Shown in pieces: positions 250 through 19,276 of a stretch of DNA of 20,000 bases. Source of the stretch: Craspedostauros australis. Lineage: Eukaryota. The notes below the pieces were generated by a model, which saw only the letters and a list, made by a program, of their open reading frames with translations, was not told the origin of the DNA and made no database searches. Where the stretch lies: contig JALAGF010000236.1 in assembly GCA_030167865.1 (NCBI GenBank), positions 61,508 to 81,507 of the forward strand. Direction: 5' to 3'. Numbering within the stretch: the stretch's first letter is position 1; every line of letters starts with the position of its first letter. A program made the translations under genes and the position numbers.

Positions 250-1230
250 TCATTTCTTTGACCACCGAGCACATTGTTGCTTGTGCCCCTGCTTCCAGTG
301 CTGCACCTGGCAATCCCGACTGCAGTAGGCGACGCGCTTGCAGCGTTGGCAACACCGCAACGGCTGCAGGTTCTGTTCGGGTGATACGTCGGTGGACGTC
401 GACGCCGATTTCTCCTCCTCTTCCTTTGACGCCGTCACGAAGTAGGTGTTGTTGCACCCCGGATTCGCGCAGGTCGCCGGCAGCACCACGGCACCCTGGA
501 CTTCATCCAGAACCAACGCCACGAGCTGCAGCAGCAGATGCCGGCGTTCCAGAACATGGGCAAAGATCGGCCCCTCCAACGCCACGCCGTCCTCGATCAT
601 TTCCATGAACTTCCGCGCAAGCTGGGGATTGATCGTCTTGAGCTTCTCCGTGTCGACCGACATGGGCTCTCCCACATGCGACCCACCCTCCAACAGGGCG
701 ATCAGATTCTCCTTCTCATCATCAGGCTCGAGCTTGCCGTCCTCAATGTAATCGCGGATGACCCTGGCATCGAGGCGGTACTGCAGGTTGAGCGGATGCG
801 ACAGGACGGAATTCTCAATGACGTTGATGAAGAGCTGCGGGTCCCTGCAGAAGGTGTTCAAGGATGCGAATTCGGGCAGCAGCAGGCGCTTCATGGCGAC
901 CTCGGATGACGCGCCTCCCTCCGTGCAGAGATCGGGCGAGATGGCCGCCAGCAGGTTGCGACGCGCGTTGGCCTTGATGCCACGCCATATGTGCTGCACC
1001 ATGTCGCCGTGCTGCTTCCAATGCCTTCGGATGCCTTCGTCGAGCGCCACGACGGCCTCCGTTTGGGAAGGGTTGGTGAGAACGGTGTTGCTCATGATGC
1101 AGGCATCGTTGCTGTCGGATGATGATGTGCACGTGATGTTCTCGCGCGATGCCCACGTCCAGTTGGCTTTCAGAACGTACGCCGCTATGCGCTCGTCGCG
1201 TCCGTCGTCCACGATGTCCACGGTTACCAT
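250..1230 (-). CDS. MYND-type zinc finger protein (C-terminal zf-MYND, uncharacterised N-terminal region), 326 aa
   Basis: ATG-initiated ORF. The C-terminus CANPGC...CQRCKRVAYCSRDCQVQHWKQGHKQQC fits the MYND pattern, including the YCSxxCQxxHW..H...C signature (about 271-471). Confidence 0.9.
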   Translation of the reverse strand: MVTVDIVDDGRDERIAAYVLKANWTWASRENITCTSSSDSNDACIMSNTVLTNPSQTEAVVALDEGIRRHWKQHGDMVQHIWRGIKANARRNLLAAISPDLCTEGGASSEVAMKRLLLPEFASLNTFCRDPQLFINVIENSVLSHPLNLQYRLDARVIRDYIEDGKLEPDDEKENLIALLEGGSHVGEPMSVDTEKLKTINPQLARKFMEMIEDGVALEGPIFAHVLERRHLLLQLVALVLDEVQGAVVLPATCANPGCNNTYFVTASKEEEEKSASTSTDVSPEQNLQPLRCCQRCKRVAYCSRDCQVQHWKQGHKQQCARWSKK

Positions 1231-1260
1231 GATCGTGTGTTGTCCCAGCGTGTACTGCTA

Positions 1261-3707: not shown

Positions 3708-5275
3708 TTAGAAATTTAACCACGGTGTCTGATCATCGCCCGTGGGATATCCCCAAACTTCCAGAGCCTCCTGCATCTGCGAACATGGCGCATCTCGCAT
3801 GGGATCTTCAGAGACGAACTTACCCGTGATATCGAGTTGATTGTAGAAGTGAACGCGCATGTCGCTGTACAGCCCGGCCTCGGCGTACGGCAACGCTTCC
3901 ACGAACTCGATGGCCTCTTGACGCGATCGCGCATTGAACATGATTAGATCGCCGACGCCGACGCTGGCGGGATCGTCCTTGTCTTTGGTGGCCACATGCA
4001 TCGGTCCTGCCGCTATGATGCGCCGGCTTTCGATGAGGTACTTCAAATTCTCTTCGTACAAGGCTTCGCGCAGACCGTCGACGTTTTCGGTTTCGTCCAT
4101 GGCGACGAGGACGGCGGGTGAGCCGATGCGTCCGTCGTCCTGTCGCAGGGTGTAATCACGAATGTGGCGCCAGCGGTAGAGATGGGCTCCGGAGATGTCG
4201 CCGCCTGTGAGGACCTGCATGATGGGTTCCTCCCGCAAGAGCTCCTCGACGTGCGCCAATTCTTTGCTTTCCAACACCATGACATGACCGATGATTCGTC
4301 GAACATCCGCCGAAAGCCTGAGTAGGTTGTACGCCATACGTGGTGGTTCAATTGTGTTTGCGTTTGCAAATGCATTTGTATTGGGAATGTAGTGCGCGTT
4401 TCGTTTTTGAAATGATGCGAATTGTGATGGGATGGGTTCAGTACATCAAAGGTTGCAACCGCCACATTCGTGATGGCGATGGTGACATTGAAGGTGAAGA
4501 GAGAGAGAGAGAGAGAGGAATCAACGAAGGGATGAGTCGAGAGTATCCATGTAGCATATACGAGCAGAGAGGTACAGAGGACCGAACATGGAACACACAA
4601 CACAACACAAGGCACGGAGCACGGAATACGCGAGGATCTGCCAGGAACGTACATTTGATAACTCCGCGAGATGTCGACCATGCTGCCGGTATTGACGGTC
4701 TCGTTGTAGAGATTCTTCTTGCGGCAGAACATGACATGATCTTCGATGGCCTCATCTCGGTCGTCGTGCAGCTGCATCATGTCGCGGCCCTCGGTGTCGA
4801 CCTCCCGATCCCAAACGATGGAGACGAAGCGGCTGCCAGAGTTCTTGGACATGGGGACGGGCTGCAGTTCGACGGTGGGCGGGATAGAGCCCTCGGCTTC
4901 TTCGTCTCCTTCGTCGTAGGGGCGTCGGAACATCTGCTGGTCATCATCGTCGTAGTCGGAAGCCTTGGATGAATATTCGGATCCATCGGCAGAGAAGGAG
5001 GACATGAAGCATGGTGGCATACTCGTACGTTGGCGGCGTGGCGTGGCAGATGGCGAGATGAAGGCCACGGTGGATGCCCTGCGTGCTGCTGCAGTTGCTG
5101 GTGGTGCGAATGCAGTGACCGAGATGAGCTGCACGCAGACAGACATCAGCAACAGGCGCACCGCGTATCCATTGGTCCGTGGTGGACTTGATGCCGCAGC
5201 ATTCAGTATTCTTTCTTCACACTTGCGCTGCTGAGGCTGCAGCTGCTCGTGTGCCGCTCCGTCTGCCATGATCAT
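3708..5275 (-). CDS. Plastid-targeted protein with two YCII (YciI-like) domains; exons 5275-4653 and 4317-3708 (410 aa from the first ATG; alternative ATG at 5146)
   Basis: Track ORFs 4043..5275 and 3708..4337 join in frame across a GT-AG intron to give ...SRSYQM-LSADVRRII.... The C-terminal IIAAGPM...GDLIMFNARSRQEAIEFVEALPYAEAGLY matches the YCII pattern. The N-terminal LLLMSVCVQLISVTA-FAPP is followed by an A/S/T/R-rich transit-like peptide. Confidence 0.82.
4318..4652 (-). other. Spliceosomal intron (335 nt, phase 2) of the YCII gene
   Basis: Minus-strand donor CAAAT|GTACGT at 4652 and acceptor CTACTCAG|G at 4318. The interior is lower in GC and contains microsatellites. Splicing restores the reading frame. 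Confidence 0.85.
4499..4516. repeat. (GA)n microsatellite within the intron
   Basis: gagagagagagagagaga, read directly. Confidence 0.9.
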
Positions 5276-6131
5276 CTCTGCTATTGATTCGATGCTGGGT
5301 TGATTGGTGGCAATGGTTCCGTGGATCGGAATGCAGCTGAGTTGGTTGGCCTTTGTCGGTATTGGTTGCTCTCTGCGGAAATGCAGCAGAAGATATGCAG
5401 CAGAGATCGCCGGTGTACCTATTCGGCCGCCGATGTAATCTACTCTGCGCGTATTCTGATGGGGTCTTCAGCCAGCAATGATGAAAGAGGACAATACCTG
5501 CTGGGACAATGATCACGATGCTGGAATCGAGAGCGTTCTTGGTGCTTTGGTGGCTGCAATGGCACACAGAGATGGCAGAGAGACGGCAGGGCCGATGGGT
5601 CGACGTGCAACAGGAAGTGCTTTCTGGTTGATGGCTTCCTTCTTCATCCTCTGGGTGGTGTGGATACGCCGAAGATGGACGGATCTGCCTTTCATGTCAA
5701 TGGCAGAAGCGCGGCAGGAATGATGGTTGGCGCAATCTTGATGGGCGGATAGAAGGTCAGACCGTTCTCCACAACGAGAGCCTCAATCACGAATGTGTCG
5801 AATCACGTATAAGACAAAGGATTCTCTTCGATGTTTCTCGGTTCACGATCGCGACACGATTGGTGGCGACGACTCAGGCGCAACAGAACTGTCTCCACAC
5901 AAGGCGAAGGCCCTCTCTCCATTCATTATCCACATCGTCGCACCTCGCGAATGCATCACACCAGGAACATCACAGAGTACGAGAGAGGTGAGGGACAGTA
6001 CGACTACATGTCCCCACATCTGCCATACCAGCACATACATAATCGTGCTACACTCTGAAAGGGTCCCCAATTCCAACAGTGACGCTCGCAAGTGGGCCCA
6101 TCTTCTTTCTGCAATTTGCGAAGTGAGTGAA

Positions 6132-7643
6132 ATGGATAGTGACGACGATGAACCACCGATGCTGGTGGAGGTCGCAGCGGATGCGGCCAGCGAGCCTGCA
6201 CAGCAGCAGCAGCAGGCGCAGCATTCACAACAGGGAGAGAAGGAGGAAGAAGAAGAAATGCCGCCATGTCCAGTCACCATCCTGTCCGGATTCCTGGGCA
6301 GCGGAAAGACGACGCTCATCCAGTACATTCTGCAATCCCCCGACCACGGCAAGCGCATCGCCGTGATTGAAAATGAATTCGGCGAGGGCGTTGCGGTGGA
6401 ATCTCTGATTGCTCGCGACGGTGTGGATCCATCCAACAACAGCCTCACGGACTTCCTGGAGCTGCCCAACGGCTGCATCTGCTGCACGGTGAAGGACAAC
6501 CTCGTCATGACGTTGGAATCGCTGCTGCAAAAACGCAAAGACCTCGATTACATCCTCATCGAGGCCAGCGGCATGGCCAATCCGGGACCCATCGCGAGCG
6601 TCTTCTGGTTGGACGATCAGATCCAGAGCCGTCTGCGGTTGGACGGAATCGTCACTCTGGTGGATGCCTATCACATTCGACGGCAGCTGGAGGAGACGGA
6701 AGAGGCGGCGCAGCAGATCGCCCATGCGGACCGGATCCTTTGCAACAAGGTGGACTTGTTGGGCAAGGCTGGCAACGGCAGCGCTCTCAACAGTGGCGGA
6801 CCATCTCGTGCTCAATCAAACACAGGGGCACAAGTAGACACGGAAGCGCAAGCGCAAGCACAGAAACAAGTGCTCAAGGTGATACGTGACATCCACCCGA
6901 TGGTGCCGATTCAGTGTACCTCGTTTTCGAAGGTCCCCGATCTGAATTGGATCCTGGATACCAACTGCTTCGATGGCAAGGATCGTTTGGGAGAGCTCGA
7001 AGAACAGCTGGAGCGCGCTGTTCAGGTCGAGGTCACGAATGATGGTCAATGCCATGAGGATCACGAGCACGATCATACCTGCCGCCACAACCACCGCCAT
7101 CATCATTCGTGCGTTCATTCGCAGGTTCACACACAATGTGTGGAATGCACAACACCAGAAGAAGAACAAATCAGCAACGACAAGCAGAATCACAAACACA
7201 CCAACTCCATCTCGACCATTTCCTTGCGTCACACAGGCACGATGCAGCTCTCCAAACTCAACGCCTGGTTGGCCAGCATCCTGTGGCCGCAGCAGGATGA
7301 ATTGAATGAAGTGCTGGATCAGCGATTGCAGTCCAACATCTCCACGCACAACATGCGCTCCAACGACACGACGATGCGCATATTCCGCATGAAGGGGATC
7401 CTGTCTGTATTTGATGATGATGACGATACGAATGGCAATTGCAAATATATATTGCAGGCCGTCCATGATCTGTGGGATGTGTACCCAGCCCAGACGGAAT
7501 CATTCGGCGATACACCGCGGCAGTGTCAGATCGTGGTGATTGGCAAACAGTTGCAACGCAAGGAACTGTTGGATGGATTTCATGACTGCTTCCTGAATGG
7601 CGCAACAGACGCAACCAACGCTAGCGCAAGTAACTCTAATTGA
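6132..7643 (+). CDS. ZNG1: COG0523/CobW-family G3E GTPase metallochaperone, ZNG1 (CBWD)-type, about 503 aa
   Basis: PVTILSGFLGSGKTT (Walker A), IAVIENEFG, ELPNGCICC (CxCC metal site), ILIEASG (Walker B), NKVD (G4), a His-rich linker and CobW_C motif IFRMKGIL...LQAVHDL...IVVIGK. Start placed at MDSDDDEPPMLV (6132) rather than the track's 5793. Confidence 0.93.
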   Translation: MDSDDDEPPMLVEVAADAASEPAQQQQQAQHSQQGEKEEEEEMPPCPVTILSGFLGSGKTTLIQYILQSPDHGKRIAVIENEFGEGVAVESLIARDGVDPSNNSLTDFLELPNGCICCTVKDNLVMTLESLLQKRKDLDYILIEASGMANPGPIASVFWLDDQIQSRLRLDGIVTLVDAYHIRRQLEETEEAAQQIAHADRILCNKVDLLGKAGNGSALNSGGPSRAQSNTGAQVDTEAQAQAQKQVLKVIRDIHPMVPIQCTSFSKVPDLNWILDTNCFDGKDRLGELEEQLERAVQVEVTNDGQCHEDHEHDHTCRHNHRHHHSCVHSQVHTQCVECTTPEEEQISNDKQNHKHTNSISTISLRHTGTMQLSKLNAWLASILWPQQDELNEVLDQRLQSNISTHNMRSNDTTMRIFRMKGILSVFDDDDDTNGNCKYILQAVHDLWDVYPAQTESFGDTPRQCQIVVIGKQLQRKELLDGFHDCFLNGATDATNASASNSN

Positions 7644-9126: not shown

Positions 9127-10263
9127 ATTCGGCGCCGTTGTGAGCAATGTGTGGGATGAGTGTCAGCCGTGTGCGCCCTCTGACTTGTCTGATTCGAAAC
9201 CAATGATGGCCTTGTTGCGAAGTCCTGTGTGTGGATGTGGATGTGTGGTGGGAGATTCTTGGCTGCGACTCAGCCACTTGTCAGACCAAAGCCGAGGAAC
9301 AACGGCGATGCCTTCCTCTTGTTGGTGGTGCCGAGACGCGCAAATGGATACTGTCGGAGAGTCCAAGGCGGAGCGCGTCGTTTGTGTTCGCCCACCAGCC
9401 AAGGAAGTGGTGGTGCGGAGGCTCGACAAGGAGGGACCGTCAATGCGGACAACTTCGTGTCACCAACAAAGAACACCAAAGGCGGTGATAGTCGCACAAC
9501 AACTCGGAGTCGAATGCGAGGCGCACATCAAATGGTTGCTTGGCGGAGCGGGTGTTTGGATTCCTCGCATTTTCACCGAATTGTTGCTCAGCGCGGAGCA
9601 GCCTCGGCTTGTGCGCAATTCGAATCTCTTGTGTTGCGTGTTTTGTCGTTGTTTGTGTTGGTTCCCACCACCGCCGGCAGCGACACACATGATGCGAAAA
9701 TTTAGGAACGAAATAGCACTTAACCTCCCCTCACAATTTTGTGGTTGTGTCGTCGCCACAGTTGGTGACACAAGGACAAAATTCTTTCTCCGAATTCATC
9801 CAGCGTGACGGCGTCACGTTCCAGAATCTCTCTCTGTTTGAAGTCGGAACAGCGAGATATCTCGAAGGTGAAGTGTCATTTCTCCTCTCCGTGTCCAACC
9901 TTCACCGTCCGTGAACCGGCTGGCTCCCATCATCCAAGAACAAATCAGCAGACGCGCACTCTCTGCTCCACCGTGAGCCACCCACTTCTTCTCTACTATA
10001 CTCTACACTTCGCGTGCGAGCATCACCAGAGAGCACCGTAAATCAAGGTTCTTATCCCACGGTTTGCGCTATTTACACTCTTCTTTGTTGACATGTTGCT
10101 GATTGAAGATGATCGTGGTCCTTTGTCTCACGTGCGAGCAAAGGCAGTGCTCCCATCATTTGAGTTGCCCATCACCCGCCATTCTCTGTGACGCCGGCTC
10201 TGGTCGTGATGGGTGAACGTGATCTTGGACAATTTCATTTGCGCCAATCTGTGGATCACAGCC

Positions 10264-13200
10264 TCACGTACCGTTCTGCGTCATCGTATCTCCTTGACCC
10301 GTTCGTTGTGGCCGTTCACCTGTGGCCTCTCGTTCTGCCGCGGCTGTACCATCCACGGTGGTGGTGTCGACATTGTCAACACAAGCGTTTGGTGCCTTGG
10401 CCTTGGCCTTGGCCCTTGCGTCGCCACCAGCATTGCTTGCACTGCTGCAACAAACAGCGACGATGCGCTGCACCGTCAAAGCGGGATCGTACAGATTCGG
10501 CAACCGCTCCGCATCGAAGCCGGACATCGCCGTGCGCATCTGCGCGCGTGATAGATTGCGGCTCAGCTCTGGCTTGCCACGCACGAAGAGCCGGTGGAAG
10601 TAGGCGCCCTTGTCGATGCCCTTGCGGATACGGTGCCAACCCCAGACGCGCAACGCGTCGCCGAGGTATGCGAACTTCGCGGCCTTGAAGTACCGCGGCA
10701 TGATCACGTTGGCGAACACCTGCTTGTTGGGGATCTGGAAGGCGTAGCCATGGCGGCACCAGGAGATCAGGGATGCGTTGCCTTCCTCGTCGGCGTCCTG
10801 GATCATGCTGCGGATGCTCTCGGGGATCTTGCCGCGCAGTTGTTTCACCTTGTTGTTCGATGTGGATGTGCCGGCGTGATTGGTGGCGGCGGGTGCAGTG
10901 GCATCGCCATTGGCCGCGGTTCCATTCTCAGCTGTCGCTACTCCCATCGCTCCAGCCGCAGCTTCACCAGTGTCGGTAGCAGCACCAGCAGCAGCGTCAG
11001 CAGCAGATGTCCCTTCAGTAGCATTGGCCAACGAAGATGATTCTCTCGTCTTCGCTGCCACGCTCTGCGCCCCTCCTCGTCTGTAGAAATCGGGCACGCC
11101 GCCATCAGGCAGCCATTCTTTCATGGCCGTCATCATCTCGGAACGCGACAACGTCCTGCACAGGTTGATCAGACCATGCACGAAGTACCGGTGATACCAC
11201 GCACCACGGTCACGACCTTCCCGCACCCGTTCGAATCCCCATGCCCGCAACCAACGTTCGAAGTTCACTATCTTGGCCTTGAAGTACTTTGGCATGATCC
11301 GTTCTTCGAACTCCTTCCTCTTGTGGATCTTGAACGCCCGACCATGGATGCACCACGATACGATATGATGGAACCGCTGCCTCTGGGCTTCTTGCAGCAT
11401 CTCGTGGATGCGGACGATGTAGGTGCCTTCGGGATTGGGATTGGTAACCACGAGCTCCCTTGGGGGTCTGGTGGCGAGGCCGGTCTGCTGTCCCATCGCA
11501 GTTGATGCAGCGCCCCTCGTTGCAGTTTCAGTCTGTCCCGTCGTCGTTTTCGCTTGCGGATCTATTGTGACGGCCTCTGCTGCTTGCCTGGCATTGAGAT
11601 TGTGATCATTGTCGTGATGATGGACTTCGCCGTGATTGCGATTCGCCGGATCTGGAGATTGACAGAGTTGATATTTGGCTTTTACTTGCTGCTGTTGCAT
11701 TTGGTTTTGGGTCAGGTCAACGAGCTGGATCTCGCGATGGACCGTATCACCGTATGCGGCTTGCGCGTTGCGACCAGGGACGGTGCTGCTCGTACTACCC
11801 CCAGTCGCGTCCCCAGCGCGCGTACCAGCAGCTGCTGAGCTCGTACCATCCCTTGATAATGAATTGAAGCAGCTACGGACGAAGTTGTTCGCGTGTGCCG
11901 CTGGGGCGTAGAAGTCGGGACATTGCCCTGTTTGCAGGTGACCTTGCATGACGTCCTTCATCTCCTGCCTGGACTTGTTCCGACACAGCACGGGCGCGTT
12001 CCGGACAAAGAGGACGTGGTACAACGCACCCTTGTCCCGGCCTTTCTTGATCTTCTTGAATCCCCACAGACGCAACGTATCGACAAGATGGCCTTTCTTG
12101 CAACTTCTGAAATGCTTCGGCATGAGCTCCTTCTCGAAGCGTTGCCGATCGTGAATCTTGAAGGCGCGTCCGTGCTGCATCCATGAAACGATGCCCGTCT
12201 TGCCTCTCTGTTCGGCATCGTACAGAACTTGCCGCACATCCTCCAATATCTTTCCACGCAGCGCCGCCGCTCTCTTTGACATCACCGCTGCCCCATGTTC
12301 CCCTGTCGTCGCCAAGTTCACATTTGCTTGCGCTTGTGAGGCACCAGCACGTTGCGAACTTCTTCCTGCCATCCCACTGGATTGCTCTCCCCAACTCCCT
12401 CCCCCTTTTCCGCACGTGTACAAATTGGGCGAACACCCCGCCTTGACCCAATTCTCCATCGCCTTGGACATGTCCACCCTGGACAGATTCCTGCACAGCA
12501 ACGTTGCGCCTCGGACGAAGTACCGATGATACCAAGCACCGCGATCTGGTCCTTCCGTGGCACGCGCGAACCCCCAGGCACGCAACCACCGCTGGAAGCT
12601 GTTCATCTTGGCCTTGAAGAATTTGGGCAGGACGGCGTCGACGAACTGCTTCGGTTTGTGGATCTTGAATGCTCGACCGTGCGGCAACCATGATACAATG
12701 TCCTGATGTCCCTGCTGTTCCGTGTCTTCGAGCATGTGGTGTATCCTGAGCACATACGTTGTCTCCGTCGATGCCTGACTGATCTTGCGGGACAACAAGG
12801 TCGCAACCGCAACGTTCTCTGGAGTACCTGCTGTCGTGTTGTCGGTTGTCGGTGTTGGCACTGATATCGGCGTTTCAGTTGCTCTTGGTGCTCTTTTCCT
12901 TGCTGCTGCTGCTGCTGTTGCCTCTTTTGCTCTTGTTGCCGATGCATCCACTCGTGCAGCGATATCTGTCGCCATGCCCTCCGGATATGAAGCATGCTGC
13001 GGAGTTAGCACAGCACCAGCTTCTCCAGTTAAGTTCGAGTTTCCGGCGGTTTGCGATGCGCGATGAGCAGTCGCTGTCACGTTCATCTCAAATGTTGCAT
13101 GCGGCGATTTTGCAGGCACTGTGACATGCGTCGCGAACTGAAAGTCAACGGGTTGATGCTGACTTGGATGCTGACGCTGATTCGAAGCATCCCTCGTCGC

Positions 13201-14244
13201 AGTTCTATCAAGGTGAGCATTGCCACTGTCGTTTGTTTCAAGATGTTGATGCGTGGCGCCTTGTGCATGAGGCGTTGCTCTGCCTGGTCGCGGGAAGTAG
13301 TCTTGGGAAAGGTCCGGCTGGTGTTGCTGGTGATGGTGTTGATGTTGGTGCTGTCGATGATGATGATTCTGGTACTGTTGGTGTTGGTGGTGCTGATGGT
13401 ACTGCTGGTCATGCTGATCATGCTGTTGCCGCTGCCCTAGATAGTGGTCACGGTGACGTGGGTGACCTTGTTGGTGTTGATGCTGGTGCTGATGCTGGTG
13501 TTGAAGTGGATGTGGACGATGCTGTTGGTGCTGATCATGGTGATGAACCTGTTGAACATGGTGATGCTGCGCTGTGCTTACAGCAATAGGTTGAATGGGA
13601 TGATGCATGTTGGGCATTGTTCGCACATGCTGATGTGGATTGGCAGGTGTATCCATGATTGGTTGCATTGCTGCTTCTCCCTCTCGTTCCAAGAATGGTT
13701 CATGATGATGCAACGCAGAGTCCCCTTGCGTGAAAGCATCCATGCTGTTGCCCCCGTCATTGCGCCTCCCGAATCCGCCGTCAAAGTCAGCCGCCATGTC
13801 AGCATCATGATGCATCGCCTCGTCCTCATCGATCCGATCATCGTACAGCCGGTCTCCATCCATTCGCATATCTCCATGTTCTTCCATCCCTGCAGCGGCA
13901 GTGTTGTTTGCAATATCCATCGCATTGACAGCGTCTGCCGGGTGATACGAGAAATCATTCCTTGCGTTCGGACGCAACCGATCAGGTGACGGGATTTGCA
14001 GGAAAGTCGCGTCCAAGTCTGGCAATCCGGTGTGCCCATTCTGTCTCGTTGGCCATTCGATGTCTCCGATTTCATGCTGTTCATGATCTGCCTGCTTATG
14101 TTCCTGTTCCTCCTGGTGTTGTTGCTGTTGTTGGTGCTGTTGATGATGCTGTGGCTGCTGTGGGCATTGGTCCTGATCGTTCTCCTCTTTCAGGAAGGGA
14201 TCAACCCCAAACGAGGGCGCTGCTGGGTTGGCCTCATGGAACAT
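10264..14244 (-). CDS. Transcription-factor-like protein with four HSF-type DNA-binding domains and a His/Gln-rich N-terminal region, about 1326 aa
   Basis: Uninterrupted ORF; first ATG is 14244 (track start 14259 is GTG; in-frame TGA at 14286-14284). Four copies of (I)(V/I)SWxxHG(R/Y)AF(K/Q)I...F...(L/M)PK(Y/F/H)F...WG(F/W)...G.D(R/K)GA..H..FV lie at about 12759-12418, 12261-11908, 11424-11083 and 10839-10489. Confidence 0.93.
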   Translation of the reverse strand: MFHEANPAAPSFGVDPFLKEENDQDQCPQQPQHHQQHQQQQQHQEEQEHKQADHEQHEIGDIEWPTRQNGHTGLPDLDATFLQIPSPDRLRPNARNDFSYHPADAVNAMDIANNTAAAGMEEHGDMRMDGDRLYDDRIDEDEAMHHDADMAADFDGGFGRRNDGGNSMDAFTQGDSALHHHEPFLEREGEAAMQPIMDTPANPHQHVRTMPNMHHPIQPIAVSTAQHHHVQQVHHHDQHQQHRPHPLQHQHQHQHQHQQGHPRHRDHYLGQRQQHDQHDQQYHQHHQHQQYQNHHHRQHQHQHHHQQHQPDLSQDYFPRPGRATPHAQGATHQHLETNDSGNAHLDRTATRDASNQRQHPSQHQPVDFQFATHVTVPAKSPHATFEMNVTATAHRASQTAGNSNLTGEAGAVLTPQHASYPEGMATDIAARVDASATRAKEATAAAAARKRAPRATETPISVPTPTTDNTTAGTPENVAVATLLSRKISQASTETTYVLRIHHMLEDTEQQGHQDIVSWLPHGRAFKIHKPKQFVDAVLPKFFKAKMNSFQRWLRAWGFARATEGPDRGAWYHRYFVRGATLLCRNLSRVDMSKAMENWVKAGCSPNLYTCGKGGGSWGEQSSGMAGRSSQRAGASQAQANVNLATTGEHGAAVMSKRAAALRGKILEDVRQVLYDAEQRGKTGIVSWMQHGRAFKIHDRQRFEKELMPKHFRSCKKGHLVDTLRLWGFKKIKKGRDKGALYHVLFVRNAPVLCRNKSRQEMKDVMQGHLQTGQCPDFYAPAAHANNFVRSCFNSLSRDGTSSAAAGTRAGDATGGSTSSTVPGRNAQAAYGDTVHREIQLVDLTQNQMQQQQVKAKYQLCQSPDPANRNHGEVHHHDNDHNLNARQAAEAVTIDPQAKTTTGQTETATRGAASTAMGQQTGLATRPPRELVVTNPNPEGTYIVRIHEMLQEAQRQRFHHIVSWCIHGRAFKIHKRKEFEERIMPKYFKAKIVNFERWLRAWGFERVREGRDRGAWYHRYFVHGLINLCRTLSRSEMMTAMKEWLPDGGVPDFYRRGGAQSVAAKTRESSSLANATEGTSAADAAAGAATDTGEAAAGAMGVATAENGTAANGDATAPAATNHAGTSTSNNKVKQLRGKIPESIRSMIQDADEEGNASLISWCRHGYAFQIPNKQVFANVIMPRYFKAAKFAYLGDALRVWGWHRIRKGIDKGAYFHRLFVRGKPELSRNLSRAQMRTAMSGFDAERLPNLYDPALTVQRIVAVCCSSASNAGGDARAKAKAKAPNACVDNVDTTTVDGTAAAEREATGERPQRTGQGDTMTQNGT
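13315..13570 (-). repeat. Low-complexity CAN-codon tract encoding poly-His/Gln inside the HSF gene
   Basis: Translates as QHHHVQQVHHHDQHQQHRPHPLQHQHQHQHQHQQGH...HQHQHHHQQHQ. Confidence 0.85.
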
Positions 14245-14699
14245 GCTGCCCAGGAACACAGCCAGTCCGTACGGGTATGACGATCAGAGGCATCGATCAG
14301 ACGATCCAAACTGAACGTCTCCGACCAACAACGACACAACGACTAGCGTGGTATGACCAGAGCAGATTCAGTTCTTTGCGAGCTGGTCTTTCTTGCGTTG
14401 TCCCACTTTGCATGTGGGCATGTATTATACGTTCTTTTCACCGTCCTGTGTTGGTCGCCACAGTGTCAATGATGATGGCGCGGATGTCCCTCTTCGCCCT
14501 TTGGCAGCTCTGTGCTGGTGTGGTGCGAGTATAGTCCACTGATGAGGCAAGTGGCATTGGGTTGTTGACAAATCATGAATACGCGTTGCCGTTGTCTCCA
14601 TTTGTGGTGTTTCTTTTTTTTCGTGCGTGTTGATGTCATGTTCCTCGCAAAGCGCAACGGTCGCGGCCGCGTTGAACCGCAATGCTAGCCTATCTCTCT

Positions 14700-16631: not shown

Positions 16632-18581
16632 TCACCCCAGGAACGCACGCAATTCCTGCTTCCAACCTTCAGCGATATCCACCAAACCCTCTCGTGGCAG
16701 AGCCGCCGGGAAAGAGGACAGGACGGCATTGATGCCGTTGTGCGTTGTGCCGATCATGTTGGCGTGAAACGCAGGGCCGAATCCCCGACGGCCTTGTCCG
16801 AACCATACATCCTCGACCTTCCATGCACATTCAGCGTCGTCCTTGATATCATCACCATGCCTGGCATCGAACAGGGAGGTAACGCCGAGATTGCTGATCT
16901 CAATGGAGTCCTGAACGCCATTGGGGCGCGTCGTGGCGAACTTGTTGGAAAACTGGATCCAATCTTCGGAGATGAACTTCATCAAGCCAATGTCCATGAT
17001 CGAGCCCTTCAACGACTTCTTCAGGCTGCTGCTGACCTCCTTGGCCAGCGCAAGCAGAGGTCCCTTGTCCATGCCAGCATCCCCACGGTCGACACCGGCA
17101 CCGACCTGGAGATACAGATTGGGAGCGGTAACGTACACTCCCATGTCGGATGGACGAACCGAGGTTGCTCTGCGTCGACGTTCATCGGCCGAGATCGCGA
17201 TCTTCAAGCGGATCTCGTTGCCGGACTTCTTCGGGATGATGTGCGGGAGCTCCTCTGTGGAGGAGGCACCAGCATCACCCCCTCCTTCTGTTACGAAGTT
17301 GCTGCTGCTATTGACGCTACTCCTTCGAAGGAGGATCGTGGCAACGGCCCTGGCCAAAGTCGATGTGAGGATGCTGTTGGGTGATGCCTTGTACTCTCGA
17401 CATTTGTCCAGGAACTTGGTGGAGTCATCCACAACCTTCACGCGATGCATGCGGCAGGATCGAACAACGTCGCTATCCATCTCGTTAGCCTCTTGGTGTG
17501 ACTGGTTGCCCTTCCAATGTGCCGGCTTGAGATACGAAGCGAGGGATGGAAATCGATCCAACAAGACCGGAACAAGTATATGACTGACTCGGGGGATAGT
17601 GTCGATAAGGTCTTCCATAGGGGCTGGCAAGACGCACTCGGAGTTCCCCGTGCTGCCATCGATGAGGGCCTGGCTGGGTGCATCGCTTTCGCCAGATGAT
17701 GGTGTATTTCTGTAGAAGCGACTGGCGGAGCGCAGAATATCCTTTGCGAGGTGCATGGTACTCACGCCATCGCAGATGAGATGATGAAGCGACAGCACGA
17801 GAGTGAATCTGCTGGATGCTGCATGATCCTTCTCCTTCGTTTTGGCTGCCTCCTCACGAATCAAGGTTGCGCGCCAAAGGTTTTGCGCCGGATCCTCATC
17901 GTGCCATTCTGTCCTTCCTTCTTGCTCCATCACGCTGTGGACCGTTTCGTCGTACGTATTATTATTATTATCATCGCCGCCATTGTTGTGCGTGTGACCG
18001 TTGGTATCGGGGACGATGACTTCACGGATGGCGACAAAGTCGTCAACTGCCGAGGGATCTTGATCGAATGGTGTTGGTCTGGGATCCAGGACCTTCAGAA
18101 ACAAGTCATCGCCCCACAGTGACGCTTCTTCCGTGTTGCTATTTGAATCCGTGGCTTCAGTCGCTGTCGCTGTAGCGGTTCCTTTTTGCGCAATGCTGAC
18201 TGGAACAAGCTCCACTCGGCTGTCAATGGAAGTTGACCCAACACCGTCGCGGTGAACTTTGGTCCGCATCCATGGATGTTGATTGCAAGCATCCAGCAGG
18301 ATGTGCTTGAGGTCCTCGATGGTGGGACCGCCGTGCGATGCTTGGTTGGACGTGGAGAGATCCAAGGCCAGTATGAAGCCGAGGTGCATCCCACTGCGCG
18401 AATGGGCGACGTACCAACGTTCCAGCAGACCAAGCCGACGGCCCACGCAGATGCGATCTCCCTCAGTGGAAGATGAGTATACTGGTGTTCCCAGCTTCTC
18501 GGCCGTGCCAAGTTTGACCTTGCCCAATGCGTAGAGCAGGAAGCCGGACGAAACGAGCACGATTCCGACCAAGGATGCCAT
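16632..18581 (-). CDS. Membrane-anchored CoA-dependent acyltransferase of the condensation-domain superfamily (alcohol acetyltransferase Atf1/PapA5-like), 649 aa
   Basis: N-terminal hydrophobic anchor (SLVGIVLVSSGFLLYALG), RRLGLLERWY, HPWMRTKV, catalytic LHHLICDGVS (HHxxxDG at 17786-17766) and C-terminal IEISNLG. Confidence 0.85.
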   Translation of the reverse strand: MASLVGIVLVSSGFLLYALGKVKLGTAEKLGTPVYSSSTEGDRICVGRRLGLLERWYVAHSRSGMHLGFILALDLSTSNQASHGGPTIEDLKHILLDACNQHPWMRTKVHRDGVGSTSIDSRVELVPVSIAQKGTATATATEATDSNSNTEEASLWGDDLFLKVLDPRPTPFDQDPSAVDDFVAIREVIVPDTNGHTHNNGGDDNNNNTYDETVHSVMEQEGRTEWHDEDPAQNLWRATLIREEAAKTKEKDHAASSRFTLVLSLHHLICDGVSTMHLAKDILRSASRFYRNTPSSGESDAPSQALIDGSTGNSECVLPAPMEDLIDTIPRVSHILVPVLLDRFPSLASYLKPAHWKGNQSHQEANEMDSDVVRSCRMHRVKVVDDSTKFLDKCREYKASPNSILTSTLARAVATILLRRSSVNSSSNFVTEGGGDAGASSTEELPHIIPKKSGNEIRLKIAISADERRRRATSVRPSDMGVYVTAPNLYLQVGAGVDRGDAGMDKGPLLALAKEVSSSLKKSLKGSIMDIGLMKFISEDWIQFSNKFATTRPNGVQDSIEISNLGVTSLFDARHGDDIKDDAECAWKVEDVWFGQGRRGFGPAFHANMIGTTHNGINAVLSSFPAALPREGLVDIAEGWKQELRAFLG

Positions 18582-19276
18582 GCTTCGACAAGTGCTCTGT
18601 GGTGAAACTGTTGGTTTTACGATTGGATAGCAGGGTTGCCCGTTGCCATTCCTCTCTTTAGGCGAAGTCCGTCGGAGTCCTTTTTATTACTCGTGCGCTC
18701 GGTGCTTGTTTCATGCAGGACGATCTCTTCACCGACCCTCTCCGGCATCGGCAACCACGAAGACTACCGAGACTCCGCGGGTGGCATGAGAGGAGAGCAA
18801 CGCAGAGGATGAATACTCGTATCGTGGGAAAGTTATTCGGTTGATGCTCTTCGTCCACAGTCGAAGACTCGTGAGAGAGTGGTGCCACTTCGTATCGTCG
18901 TTGGCCCCGTGGACTCCGCTGCGAGTATCCATGTCGTCTGTTCATCTGATTCGTGCAACTGTTGTTGGAGCAACAACGAAGCCAGCGTTTGTTGGCAGTA
19001 TCTTTGTTTTCATCGGCACGCAGTATGGCCATCACACGTCACTTTGCGTTGTGTCTGGGCGAAGATTTCCGAACGTAGTCTATCTTTCAAAGTTAGTTTG
19101 AATTATTTCTACCACCTTGCCCGTATTAGTGCGTATGGTGTTGTGATTGGGAGAGCAACAACACTGCGCGTATTGAGCCGACTGCAATCATCGCAGCTCA
19201 ATCTCCTGATCGCGCAGCCCTCTGCTTCTCGACGTCATGGTGTACGTGTATGACACCGTTCTTGCATTCTGTGGCC

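What the first reader, a model, noticed from the sequence alone, without database searches (positions are those of the whole stretch)
10489..12759. Single-chain transcription factor with four HSF DNA-binding domains in an A-B-A-B arrangement
Seen: four HSF-type domains fall into two alternating classes. Domains 1 and 3 begin TY(V/I)(L/V)RIH(H/E)ML and share RWLRAWGF and GAWYHRYFV. Domains 2 and 4 begin LRGKI(L/P)E and share D(T/A)LR(L/V)WG and GA(L/Y)(Y/F)H.LFVR. Each ends with an SR..M...M...P(N/D)(F/L)Y extension, and the linkers are A/T/G/Q-rich. Known: canonical HSFs have one DBD and trimerise through the HR-A/B coiled coil to read nGAAn arrays; diatoms have greatly expanded HSF families. 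Inference: an A-B didomain was duplicated internally, and the covalent array may replace trimerisation. I see no obvious heptad repeat by eye.
Basis: partly seen in the sequence, partly recalled or inferred. Interest (0 to 1): 0.8.

Follow-up and report, generated by a model that had tools for sequence, protein, structure and literature searches.

The report
Diatom regulator with four HSF domains
One diatom gene encodes a transcription factor with four heat-shock-factor DNA-binding domains of two alternating types, one of which always lacks the arginine that normally reads the DNA, so it may show how such factors work without forming trimers.

Summary
Window 10264-14259 (minus strand) is one uninterrupted 1331-codon ORF. 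It holds four HSF-type DNA-binding domains, and each one passes Pfam's cut-off on its own.

The domains alternate A-B-A-B. On a domain tree, D1+D3 and D2+D4 are separate clades (97/95 and 100/96). A D1+D2 clade is rejected (p-AU 5e-64).

The gene is not unique. I found 30 proteins with the same four-domain order, counting this one. The named ones come from Nitzschia, Cylindrotheca and a Bacillariaceae MAG.

The new point concerns the recognition helix. Class A keeps the invariant Arg that reads the G of GAA (37 of 37). Class B always has Asp there (38 of 38), with an invariant Arg three residues later. Class B is also the more basic class.

AlphaFold2 gives four confident winged-helix domains joined by disordered linkers, with no helix longer than 15 residues after any domain. 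I saw no HR-A/B-like coiled coil, though no dedicated predictor was run.

The best reading is a monomeric, covalently tethered pair of A-B readers for composite DNA sites. DNA binding, specificity and oligomeric state are all untested. I found no description of this family in the papers I could search.

The parts
10264..14259 (-). Whole ORF, 1331 codons. The likely CDS runs from the first ATG at 14242-14244 to the TGA at 10264-10266. No intron is needed.
12790..14244 (-). N-terminal region, aa 6-490. It is rich in His, Gln, Asp and Ala and has no Pfam family. It is predicted mostly disordered. I infer it may be an activation or low-complexity region.
12400..12789 (-). HSF domain D1 (class A), aa 491-620. 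The recognition-helix Arg is R557 (codon 12589-12591).
12280..12399 (-). Linker D1-D2 (about 40 aa, rich in Gly, Ser, Ala and Gln), predicted disordered.
11890..12279 (-). HSF domain D2 (class B), aa 661-790. An LRG arm precedes helix 1. Asp D727 (codon 12079-12081) sits at the position of the canonical Arg.
11449..11889 (-). Long central linker D2-D3 (about 150 aa), predicted disordered. It separates the two A-B units.
11065..11448 (-). HSF domain D3 (class A), aa 938-1065. The recognition-helix Arg is R1002 (codon 11254-11256).
10858..11064 (-). Linker D3-D4 (about 70 aa, rich in Ala, Thr and Gly), predicted disordered. It is longer here than in most relatives (19-70 aa).
10471..10857 (-). 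HSF domain D4 (class B), aa 1135-1263. Asp D1201 (codon 10657-10659) sits at the position of the canonical Arg.
10267..10470 (-). C-terminal tail, aa 1264-1331. It has no Pfam family and is predicted disordered.

Best explanation
This is a nuclear gene of a raphid pennate diatom, of Bacillariaceae type. It encodes a member of a conserved family of single-chain transcription factors built from two tandem A-B pairs of HSF-type winged-helix domains. The family arose when an A-B didomain was duplicated once, before the family radiated. This is shown by the tree, with the caveat that the split between positions within each class is only partly resolved. Class A domains keep the canonical recognition helix (S-F-x-R) and most likely read nGAAn-type half-sites, as HSF1 does. 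This is inferred. Class B domains have Asp in place of that Arg, with an invariant Arg three residues further on and an invariant Leu-Arg-Gly arm before helix 1. They are the more basic class, and their helix 3 is more conserved than the rest of the domain. I therefore infer that they still bind DNA but read a different half-site. Each A-B pair is joined by a short flexible linker and would read a composite A-site plus B-site element. The long disordered central linker lets the two pairs occupy two such elements. No HR-A/B-like coiled coil follows any domain, so covalent linkage would supply the multivalency that trimerisation supplies in canonical HSFs. This too is inferred. The His/Gln/Asp-rich N-terminal half would act as the effector or activation region, which is inferred from composition alone. 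The confidence of 0.5 is for this full mechanism. The architectural statements (one gene, four HSF folds, A-B-A-B classes, a conserved family, the Arg/Asp alternation) I hold at more than 0.9.
For: Single ORF: 1331 codons with no stop. Four PF00447 domains, each above the cut-off alone. Fold: AlphaFold2 gives four domains at pLDDT of about 90 or more, with the order helix, two strands, two helices, two strands, C-terminal helix. Foldseek matches HSF1, HSF2, HSF4 and Skn7 DNA-binding domains at target TM 0.64-0.83 among the ten best matches. Conserved family: 17 of 19 first hits have four Pfam stretches. In all, 25 proteins counting the window plus 5 more are A-B-A-B with Arg/Asp/Arg/Asp. One comes from a transcript ORF that its source labels complete (P0011). 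A/B classes: careful tree of 68 domains gives family 100/98, A 97/95, B 100/96. A D1+D2 clade is rejected at p-AU 5.2e-64. A D1 clade is not rejected at p 0.231. Recognition helix: D1 aligns to HSF1 SFVRQLN with the Arg kept, and D2 aligns to HSF2 with Asp on that Arg. Class A has Arg in 37 of 37 and class B has Asp in 38 of 38. The position equivalent to HSF1 N74 is Arg in 38 of 38 B and 31 of 37 A. R78, D248, R523 and D722 are invariant in alignment A1. The role of that Arg (bidentate hydrogen bonds to the G of GAA; Arg to Ala abolishes binding) comes from passages of PMC8379338 and PMC12251660. B is still constrained and basic: median net charge is +7 (D2) and +10 (D4) against +4 (D1) and +6 (D3). 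Helix-3 entropy in B is 0.85 bits against 1.40 for the domain core. The Arg aligned to HSF1 R117 is kept. Unit structure: the D2-D3 linker (65-196 aa) is the longest of the three in 19 of 19 proteins, against 21-97 aa for D1-D2 and 19-70 aa for D3-D4. No coiled coil: the longest helix in aa 480-1331 is 15 residues and the linkers have pLDDT under 50. The N-terminal single-sequence model is mostly disordered. Precedent: only 7 of 17 expressed P. infestans HSFs have a predicted coiled coil, yet these HSFs bound TTC/GAA motifs (passages of PMC11267843).
Against: There are no binding, oligomerisation or expression data for this protein. In canonical HSFs, loss of the helix-3 Arg abolishes DNA binding, so class B may not read bases at all. 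The whole-model pTM is 0.30, so no fixed arrangement between domains is predicted. My heptad scan is crude and found no positive control among the 161 proteins scanned. No dedicated coiled-coil predictor was available. The N-terminal model shows a 33-residue helix over a Gln/His run (aa 273-305) and a 24-residue Ala-rich helix (aa 430-453), either of which could mediate self-association. Within each class, D1 against D3 and D2 against D4 are resolved as position-specific clades only in one subfamily of 8 proteins. Gene conversion or repeated duplication in the other subfamily, which includes the window, is therefore not excluded. The conserved S-G-x-G-x-x-L-S-E tail that follows class A domains in most relatives is missing in the window protein. 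Two relatives' A-B proteins (P0032, P0182) share a longest-contig length of 33,518 nt. The gene may therefore be split in some genomes, or may simply have been called in two pieces.
Confidence: 0.5

Rival explanations
1. Class B domains are pseudo-DNA-binding domains. With Asp in place of the GAA-reading Arg, they no longer read bases. They would instead act as partners or regulators of the neighbouring class A domain, within the chain or between chains, through masking, dimer mimicry or cofactor docking. The protein would then behave as a tethered dimer of two GAA readers.
For: The Arg is described as invariant and essential in canonical HSFs (passages of PMC8379338 and PMC12251660). Class B has Asp there in 38 of 38. 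The HSF wing and turn are known protein-protein contact surfaces. B always directly follows A across a short linker.
Against: B domains are the most basic parts of the protein. They keep an invariant Arg one turn along helix 3, the Arg equivalent to HSF1 R117, and an invariant basic arm. Helix 3 is the best-conserved part of B. None of these would be expected of a surface that had left DNA.
Confidence: 0.25
2. The protein still oligomerises, through its Gln/His-rich or Ala-rich N-terminal helices or through wing contacts. It would then form higher-order arrays on long repeats, and covalent linkage would add to oligomerisation rather than replace it.
For: The single-sequence AlphaFold2 model predicts helices at aa 273-305 (Gln/His run) and aa 430-453 (Ala-rich). 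From my own knowledge, not tested here, Gln-rich helices can self-associate.
Against: Those helices have low confidence (pLDDT roughly 50-78) and no hydrophobic heptads: 0 windows reached 6 of 8 a/d positions. N-terminal regions vary from 0 to 539 aa among family members and are not conserved. No helix longer than 15 residues follows any domain.
Confidence: 0.15
3. The finding is a gene-model artefact or a decaying gene: the ORF really represents two adjacent A-B genes, or a pseudogene.
For: No RNA holder was found for this stretch. Two A-B proteins of one relative may lie on one contig.
Against: The ORF has 3,993 coding bases with no stop across all four domains and three low-complexity linkers. 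Thirty relatives share the four-domain order in one chain, including an ORF whose source label marks it a complete transcript ORF. All four domains keep their class-specific invariant residues.
Confidence: 0.03

Closest known systems
Canonical heat shock factors (human HSF1/HSF2; PDB 5D5U, 7DCJ, 5D8K, 7DCI)
   Same: Same winged-helix DNA-binding fold and the same Pfam family. Class A keeps the S-F-x-R recognition helix, the W/Y-G-F turn and the C-terminal Arg.
   Different: There are four domains per chain instead of one. No HR-A/B coiled coil was seen. Class B has Asp at the invariant Arg. The Asn that makes the water-mediated base contact is Arg in both classes. A conserved P-D-F-Y-type extension follows the domains.
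Oomycete HSFs without coiled coils (Phytophthora infestans; PMC11267843, passages read)
   Same: Both are stramenopile HSF-type factors. In P. infestans only 7 of 17 expressed HSFs have a predicted coiled coil, yet the HSFs still bound TTC/GAA motifs.
   Different: In the passages I read, those factors are treated as proteins with one DNA-binding domain. I found no mention there of tandem domains or of an Arg-to-Asp class.
Database entries 'HSF-type DNA-binding protein' of Nitzschia inconspicua (KAG7349189.1, KAG7374652.1), plus unnamed products of Cylindrotheca closterium, C. fusiformis, Nitzschia sp. Nitz4 and a Bacillariaceae MAG
   Same: Same family, with four domains in A-B-A-B order and Arg/Asp/Arg/Asp.
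   Different: Over the four-domain region they are only 30-43% identical to the window protein. Most carry an S-G-x-G-x-x-L-S-E tail after class A that the window lacks. The names given by the sources are only the generic Pfam-family name, 'hypothetical protein' or 'unnamed protein product'. I found no functional study.
Tandem-repeat DNA readers such as R2R3-Myb and C2H2 zinc-finger arrays (analogy from general knowledge, not tested)
   Same: The logic is shared: several small DNA-reading modules on one chain, each taking a neighbouring sub-site, with an Arg-Asp pair in the recognition helix.
   Different: The folds are unrelated. HSF domains normally gain multivalency by trimerisation, not by repetition.
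Fungal HSF-type regulators Skn7/Sfl1 (PDB 5D5W/5D5X)
   Same: They use the HSF-type domain outside the classical heat-shock factor. The fold matches (rank 7).
   Different: They have a single domain with the canonical Arg, and a coiled coil or receiver domain alongside it.

Membership tests
HSF-type DNA-binding domain (Pfam PF00447) | Profile match above the gathering score for each domain | tested here: met
   Scanned alone, the domains score 56.8, 46.3, 48.0 and 48.9 bits against a cut-off of 22. The whole protein gives four stretches.
HSF-type DNA-binding domain (Pfam PF00447) | Winged helix-turn-helix fold | tested here: met
   AlphaFold2 gives four domains at pLDDT of about 90 or more. 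Foldseek target TM is 0.64-0.83 to HSF1, HSF2, HSF4 and Skn7 domains among the ten best matches.
HSF-type DNA-binding domain (Pfam PF00447) | Invariant recognition-helix Arg (HSF1 R71 / HSF2 R63) that reads the G of GAA | tested here: not met
   This is met in D1 and D3 (R557, R1002; class A 37 of 37). It is not met in D2 and D4 (D727, D1201; class B Asp 38 of 38).
Canonical trimeric heat shock factor (HSF1-like) | One N-terminal DNA-binding domain | tested here: not met
   There are four domains, and the first starts at aa 491.
Canonical trimeric heat shock factor (HSF1-like) | HR-A/B heptad-repeat coiled coil next to the DNA-binding domain | tested here: not met
   No helix longer than 15 residues in aa 480-1331, and the linkers have pLDDT under 50. 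In a crude heptad scan, 0 windows had 6 of 8 hydrophobic a/d positions, but the scan had no positive control. No dedicated predictor was run.
Canonical trimeric heat shock factor (HSF1-like) | Binds inverted nGAAn repeats and is activated by stress | not testable with these tools
   This needs EMSA, PBM, DAP-seq and expression data.
A-B-A-B four-HSF-domain family of Bacillariaceae-type diatoms (defined here) | Four domains in class order A-B-A-B with Arg/Asp/Arg/Asp in helix 3 | tested here: met
A-B-A-B four-HSF-domain family of Bacillariaceae-type diatoms (defined here) | Invariant Leu-Arg-Gly arm before helix 1 of each class B domain | tested here: met
   L188 R189 G190 and L662 R663 G664 are invariant in alignment A1.
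A-B-A-B four-HSF-domain family of Bacillariaceae-type diatoms (defined here) | S-G-x-G-x-x-L-S-E tail after class A domains | tested here: not met
   It is present in most relatives but absent after both D1 and D3 of the window protein.

The most novel reading that the evidence does not exclude
Class B is a new DNA-recognition variant of the HSF fold. An Asp-Arg pair in helix 3 would replace the universal Arg and read a half-site other than GAA. The A-B didomain would then be a heterotypic two-module reader, and A-B-A-B would be a monomeric reader of composite elements. This would be a repeat-array solution, like that of zinc fingers or Myb, to a problem that all characterised HSFs solve by trimerisation. 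It might also help explain how the very large diatom HSF repertoire diversified its targets.
Probability: 0.35. Interest if true: 0.7.

Novelty: new variant of a known kind. Interest (0 to 1): 0.55.

Why it matters
HSF-type factors are the largest transcription-factor family in diatoms: 67 of 196 predicted factors in Phaeodactylum (34.2% of its transcription-factor content) (table and passage of PMC4827209). How they work is largely unknown. In the related oomycetes, most lack the coiled coil that canonical HSFs need in order to bind DNA.

A conserved family that strings two kinds of HSF domain on one chain gives a concrete, testable model for DNA binding without trimers. One of the two kinds carries a fixed Arg-to-Asp change at the single most important base-reading position. 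The same family also offers a test of how DNA specificity can diversify within this fold.

The test is cheap: express A, B and A-B, and run PBM, SELEX or DAP-seq. If B proves to be a non-binding domain, the family would instead show how a DNA-binding fold gets recruited as a regulatory module.

Tried and rejected
- **Own genome:** none is held, so I could not survey paralogues or promoter motifs.
- **RNA evidence:** no RNA holder is listed. The one run offered (X1, kind only guessed as RNA, word share 0.05) gave a single 336-nt contig identical to window 10175-10510, which covers the 3' end of the ORF and 89 nt beyond the stop codon. Its other pieces were matches of 34 to 96 nt with up to 9 mismatches, most of them outside the ORF; the reported 'joint' 12921>14116 has only 22 letters on its shorter side. 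I do not use this as evidence for or against expression or splicing.
- **Complex prediction, D3 against D4:** no answer, score 0.00, controls not run. This is no evidence either way.
- **Heptad scan:** nothing reached 6 of 8 in the window protein or in any of the 25 family members. None of the 161 proteins scanned reached 7 of 8, so the scan has no positive control and is weak.
- **Earlier notes of this scan:** nothing was held by place or by words.
- **Literature:** six searches and passages of five papers turned up no description of HSFs with several DNA-binding domains in diatoms. One search returned mostly plant papers on gene counts.
- **Papers not held:** the two papers most likely to bear on novelty are not held. 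They are Rayko et al. 2010 (New Phytol) and Lin et al. 2024 (Phyton). I recall the first only in outline, and supplements are closed. 'Not in print' therefore means only 'not found in the held library'.
- **Free-standing A-B genes:** the short hits mostly begin at a Met inside helix 1 or sit on contigs of 1-4 kb. They cannot show a free-standing two-domain ancestor.
- **Arg/Asp/Glu/Asp in P0173:** this apparent exception was a mis-hit of my regular expression.
- **AU test of a D4 clade:** it did not finish.
Full report
**What is there.** The finding lies on the minus strand inside a single open reading frame, window 10264-14259. The frame has 1331 codons, its first ATG is at 14242-14244 and its TGA stop is at 10264-10266.

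Pfam's HSF_DNA-bind model (PF00447) finds four stretches in the whole protein (E 3.2e-43). Each 125-residue piece scanned alone passes the 22-bit cut-off, at 56.8, 46.3, 48.0 and 48.9 bits. The N-terminal 490 residues and the C-terminal 71 match no family.

By my own profile the domain envelopes are aa 491-620, 661-790, 938-1065 and 1135-1263. The window is ordinary gene-dense eukaryotic DNA of about 54% G+C. Its neighbours are unrelated: a MYND finger, a CobW-type GTPase, a YCII domain and an alcohol-acetyltransferase-like protein.

**Fold.** An AlphaFold2 model of aa 480-1331, built on a 19-row alignment, gives four compact domains at pLDDT of about 90 or more. Each has the order helix, two strands, two helices, two strands, short turn, C-terminal helix. 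The regions between the domains score below 50, and whole-model pTM is 0.30. Foldseek against the PDB returns HSF1, HSF2, HSF4 and Skn7 DNA-binding domains, with target TM 0.64-0.83 among the ten best matches.

**It is a family, not a one-off.**
- A word-indexed search with aa 495-1260 gave 19 proteins. Of these, 17 have four Pfam stretches, one has three because its first domain is cut at the N-terminus, and one has two plus an HMG box.
- An exhaustive profile search of 1.84 billion representatives with the four-domain alignment found 18,729 proteins at E up to 1e-3 and 633 at E up to 1e-30.
- I classified the window protein and the 160 proteins then held with class-specific profiles. Twenty-five of them, counting the window, are complete A-B-A-B proteins (P0001-P0019, P0021-P0026).
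- A search among shorter proteins added five more (P0173-P0177). The other 23 hits were fragments.
- The members that carry names come from Nitzschia inconspicua, Nitzschia sp. Nitz4, Cylindrotheca closterium, C. fusiformis and a Bacillariaceae MAG. There is also a truncated model labelled Psemu1, which I recall to be Pseudo-nitzschia multiseries.
- One member is an ORF whose MMETSP source label marks it a complete transcript ORF (P0011).
- Over the four-domain region the window protein is only 30-43% identical to the 18 others aligned, so its organism has no close relative in these collections.

**Other multi-domain HSF proteins.** The 150 best hits also include many other proteins with two HSF-type domains, both carrying the canonical Arg. 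Thirteen proteins have three to six domains, and one of them has six (P0047). That list is ranked by summed score against a four-domain profile, so it favours multi-domain proteins and is not a census. It still shows that repeating the HSF domain on one chain is common in these data.

**Two alternating classes, and a didomain duplication.**
- Within the window protein, D1/D3 are 53% identical and D2/D4 are 42%. The four A/B pairs are 35-40%.
- Across the family the within-protein means are 59.6% for D1/D3 and 52.5% for D2/D4, against 38.5-39.6% for the A/B pairs.
- A quick tree of 77 domains, leaving out the truncated first domain of P0013, put D1+D3 (37 rows) on one side of a branch with 96% SH-aLRT support. 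D2+D4 (38 rows) fell on the other side at 94%.
- A careful tree used 15 of the 25 family members then known, chosen to span the 50%-identity clusters. That made 60 domains, plus 8 outgroup domains from four two-domain proteins. Support was 100/98 for the family, 97/95 for class A and 100/96 for class B. The bootstrap had not fully settled.
- Holding D1+D2 together costs 133.9 log-likelihood units and is rejected (p-AU 5.2e-64).
- Holding all D1 together costs 10.5 units and is not rejected (p 0.231).
- In one subfamily of eight proteins, each of the four positions forms its own well-supported clade (99/96, 100/98, 98/95, 99/97). In the other subfamily, which includes the window, positions within a class are unresolved.
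- The D2-D3 linker (65-196 aa) is the longest of the three in 19 of 19 proteins. D1-D2 is 21-97 aa and D3-D4 is 19-70 aa.

Gene conversion within a class cannot be excluded.

HMMER alignments to solved structures place D1's SFQRWLRAWGF on HSF1's SFVRQLNMYGF, with the Arg kept. They place D2's HLVDTLRLWGF on the same stretch of HSF2, with Asp on that Arg.

Across the family, class A has Arg in 37 of 37 domains and class B has Asp in 38 of 38. The position of HSF1 Asn74 is Arg in 38 of 38 B domains and 31 of 37 A domains. In the 19-protein alignment R78, D248, R523 and D722 are invariant. These correspond to R557, D727, R1002 and D1201 of the ORF.

Passages of Feng et al. 2021 (PMC8379338) describe this Arg (Arg71 in HSF1, Arg63 in HSF2) as the invariant residue whose bidentate hydrogen bonds to the guanine of GAA give most of the specificity. 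Asn74 and Arg117 make auxiliary contacts. Passages of a 2025 maize study (PMC12251660) report that Arg-to-Ala at this site abolishes binding.

Class B does not look like a decaying domain:
- Its median net charge is +7 (D2) and +10 (D4), against +4 (D1) and +6 (D3).
- Its helix 3 is better conserved than the rest of the domain, at 0.85 against 1.40 bits of column entropy. In class A the figures are 0.53 against 1.07.
- It keeps the Arg aligned to HSF1 Arg117.
- It carries an invariant Leu-Arg-Gly within a basic arm just before helix 1.

**No sign of a trimerisation coiled coil.** In the model of aa 480-1331 the longest helix has 15 residues, and everything between the domains is low-confidence coil. 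A single-sequence model of aa 6-490 is mostly disordered, at mean pLDDT 45.9. Its three helices lie over a Gln/His run (aa 273-305), an Ala-rich stretch (aa 430-453) and a short segment.

A crude heptad scan found no 28-residue window with 6 of 8 hydrophobic a/d positions in the window protein or in any of the 25 family members. It also found no positive control among the 161 proteins scanned. I therefore rate the coiled coil as not seen, rather than excluded. Passages of PMC11267843 report that only 7 of 17 expressed P. infestans HSFs have predicted coiled coils, while the HSFs still bound TTC/GAA motifs.

**Most likely mechanism.**
- Shown: there is one chain with four HSF folds in two classes in fixed order. 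The class-specific residues are conserved. The A-B linkers are short and the central linker is long and disordered.
- Inferred: class A reads GAA-type half-sites. Class B still lies on DNA but reads something else, perhaps with Asp buttressing the Arg one turn along, as Arg-Asp pairs do in zinc fingers (an analogy from general knowledge).
- Inferred: each A-B pair reads a composite element. The two pairs give the avidity that a trimer gives canonical HSFs. The His/Gln/Asp-rich N-terminal half is the effector region.

I put about 0.5 on this full mechanism. I put more than 0.9 on the architectural statements.

The main rival, at 0.25, is that B is a non-reading partner domain. A non-exclusive rival, at 0.15, is that the protein also self-associates through its low-complexity helices. 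A gene-model artefact is unlikely, at 0.03.

**Comparison and novelty.** Each of the four domains passes Pfam's threshold for the HSF-type domain family. The protein is not a canonical HSF: it has four domains, no HR-A/B was seen, and two domains fail the invariant-Arg criterion.

Relatives exist in public databases, but only under the generic Pfam-family name 'HSF-type DNA-binding', 'hypothetical protein' or 'unnamed protein product'. Six full-text searches and the passages read in five papers gave no description of diatom HSFs with several DNA-binding domains, or of an Arg-to-Asp class (12, 25, 27, 34, 63, 66). An earlier mention cannot be ruled out.

I rate it a new variant of a known kind, of moderate interest. 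The fixed Arg/Asp alternation, however, gives a specific and cheaply testable hypothesis about how coiled-coil-less HSFs read DNA.

Noticed in passing
window 13300-14150 (-), aa about 36-320 of the ORF: Long His/Gln-rich low-complexity runs with acidic patches in the N-terminal half. The single-sequence AlphaFold2 model puts a 33-residue helix over the Gln/His run at aa 273-305. Relatives have N-terminal regions of 0-539 aa that do not align.
   Followed up: partly
P0032 and P0182: Two A-B proteins, one like D1-D2 and one like D3-D4, both begin at a Met inside helix 1 of class A. Both are listed with the same longest contig length (33,518 nt). In that relative the four-domain gene may be split, interrupted, or simply called in two pieces.
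   Followed up: no
P0047, P0039, P0043, P0050, P0051, P0076: These are other proteins with four to six HSF-type domains. Where my simple pattern could read it, the helix-3 position of the canonical Arg is often Ser, Asn, Gln, Thr, His or Asp, but it could not read several domains, and two of those read (one each in P0043 and P0076) keep Arg. The domains are much more divergent, at 40-120 bits against my class profiles. They suggest wider experimentation with repeated, altered HSF domains.
   Followed up: partly
P0020: A 1084-aa protein that combines an HMG-box match with two canonical-Arg HSF domains about 760 residues apart. Its domains fall outside the A-B-A-B family on the tree.
   Followed up: partly
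family alignment; window aa 612-630 and 1057-1075 (window about 12370-12425 and 11035-11090): Most relatives carry a conserved S-G-x-G-x-x-L-S-E motif right after the P-D-F-Y end of class A domains. The window protein lacks it after both D1 and D3. It also has unusually long Ala/Thr/Gly linkers.
   Followed up: partly
window 5742-7643 (+), 250-1257 (-), 3708-4445 (-), 16632-18683 (-): Neighbouring open frames match CobW/CobW_C (GTPase metallochaperone type), a MYND zinc finger, a YCII-related domain and an alcohol-acetyltransferase-like family. Five further frames of 240-474 codons have no Pfam match. None has an evident link to the HSF gene.
   Followed up: partly
window 10175-10510: One 336-nt contig of coded run X1 (kind only guessed as RNA) is identical to the 3' end of the ORF and extends 89 nt past the stop codon. 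This is the only trace of this exact sequence found in public runs.
   Followed up: partly
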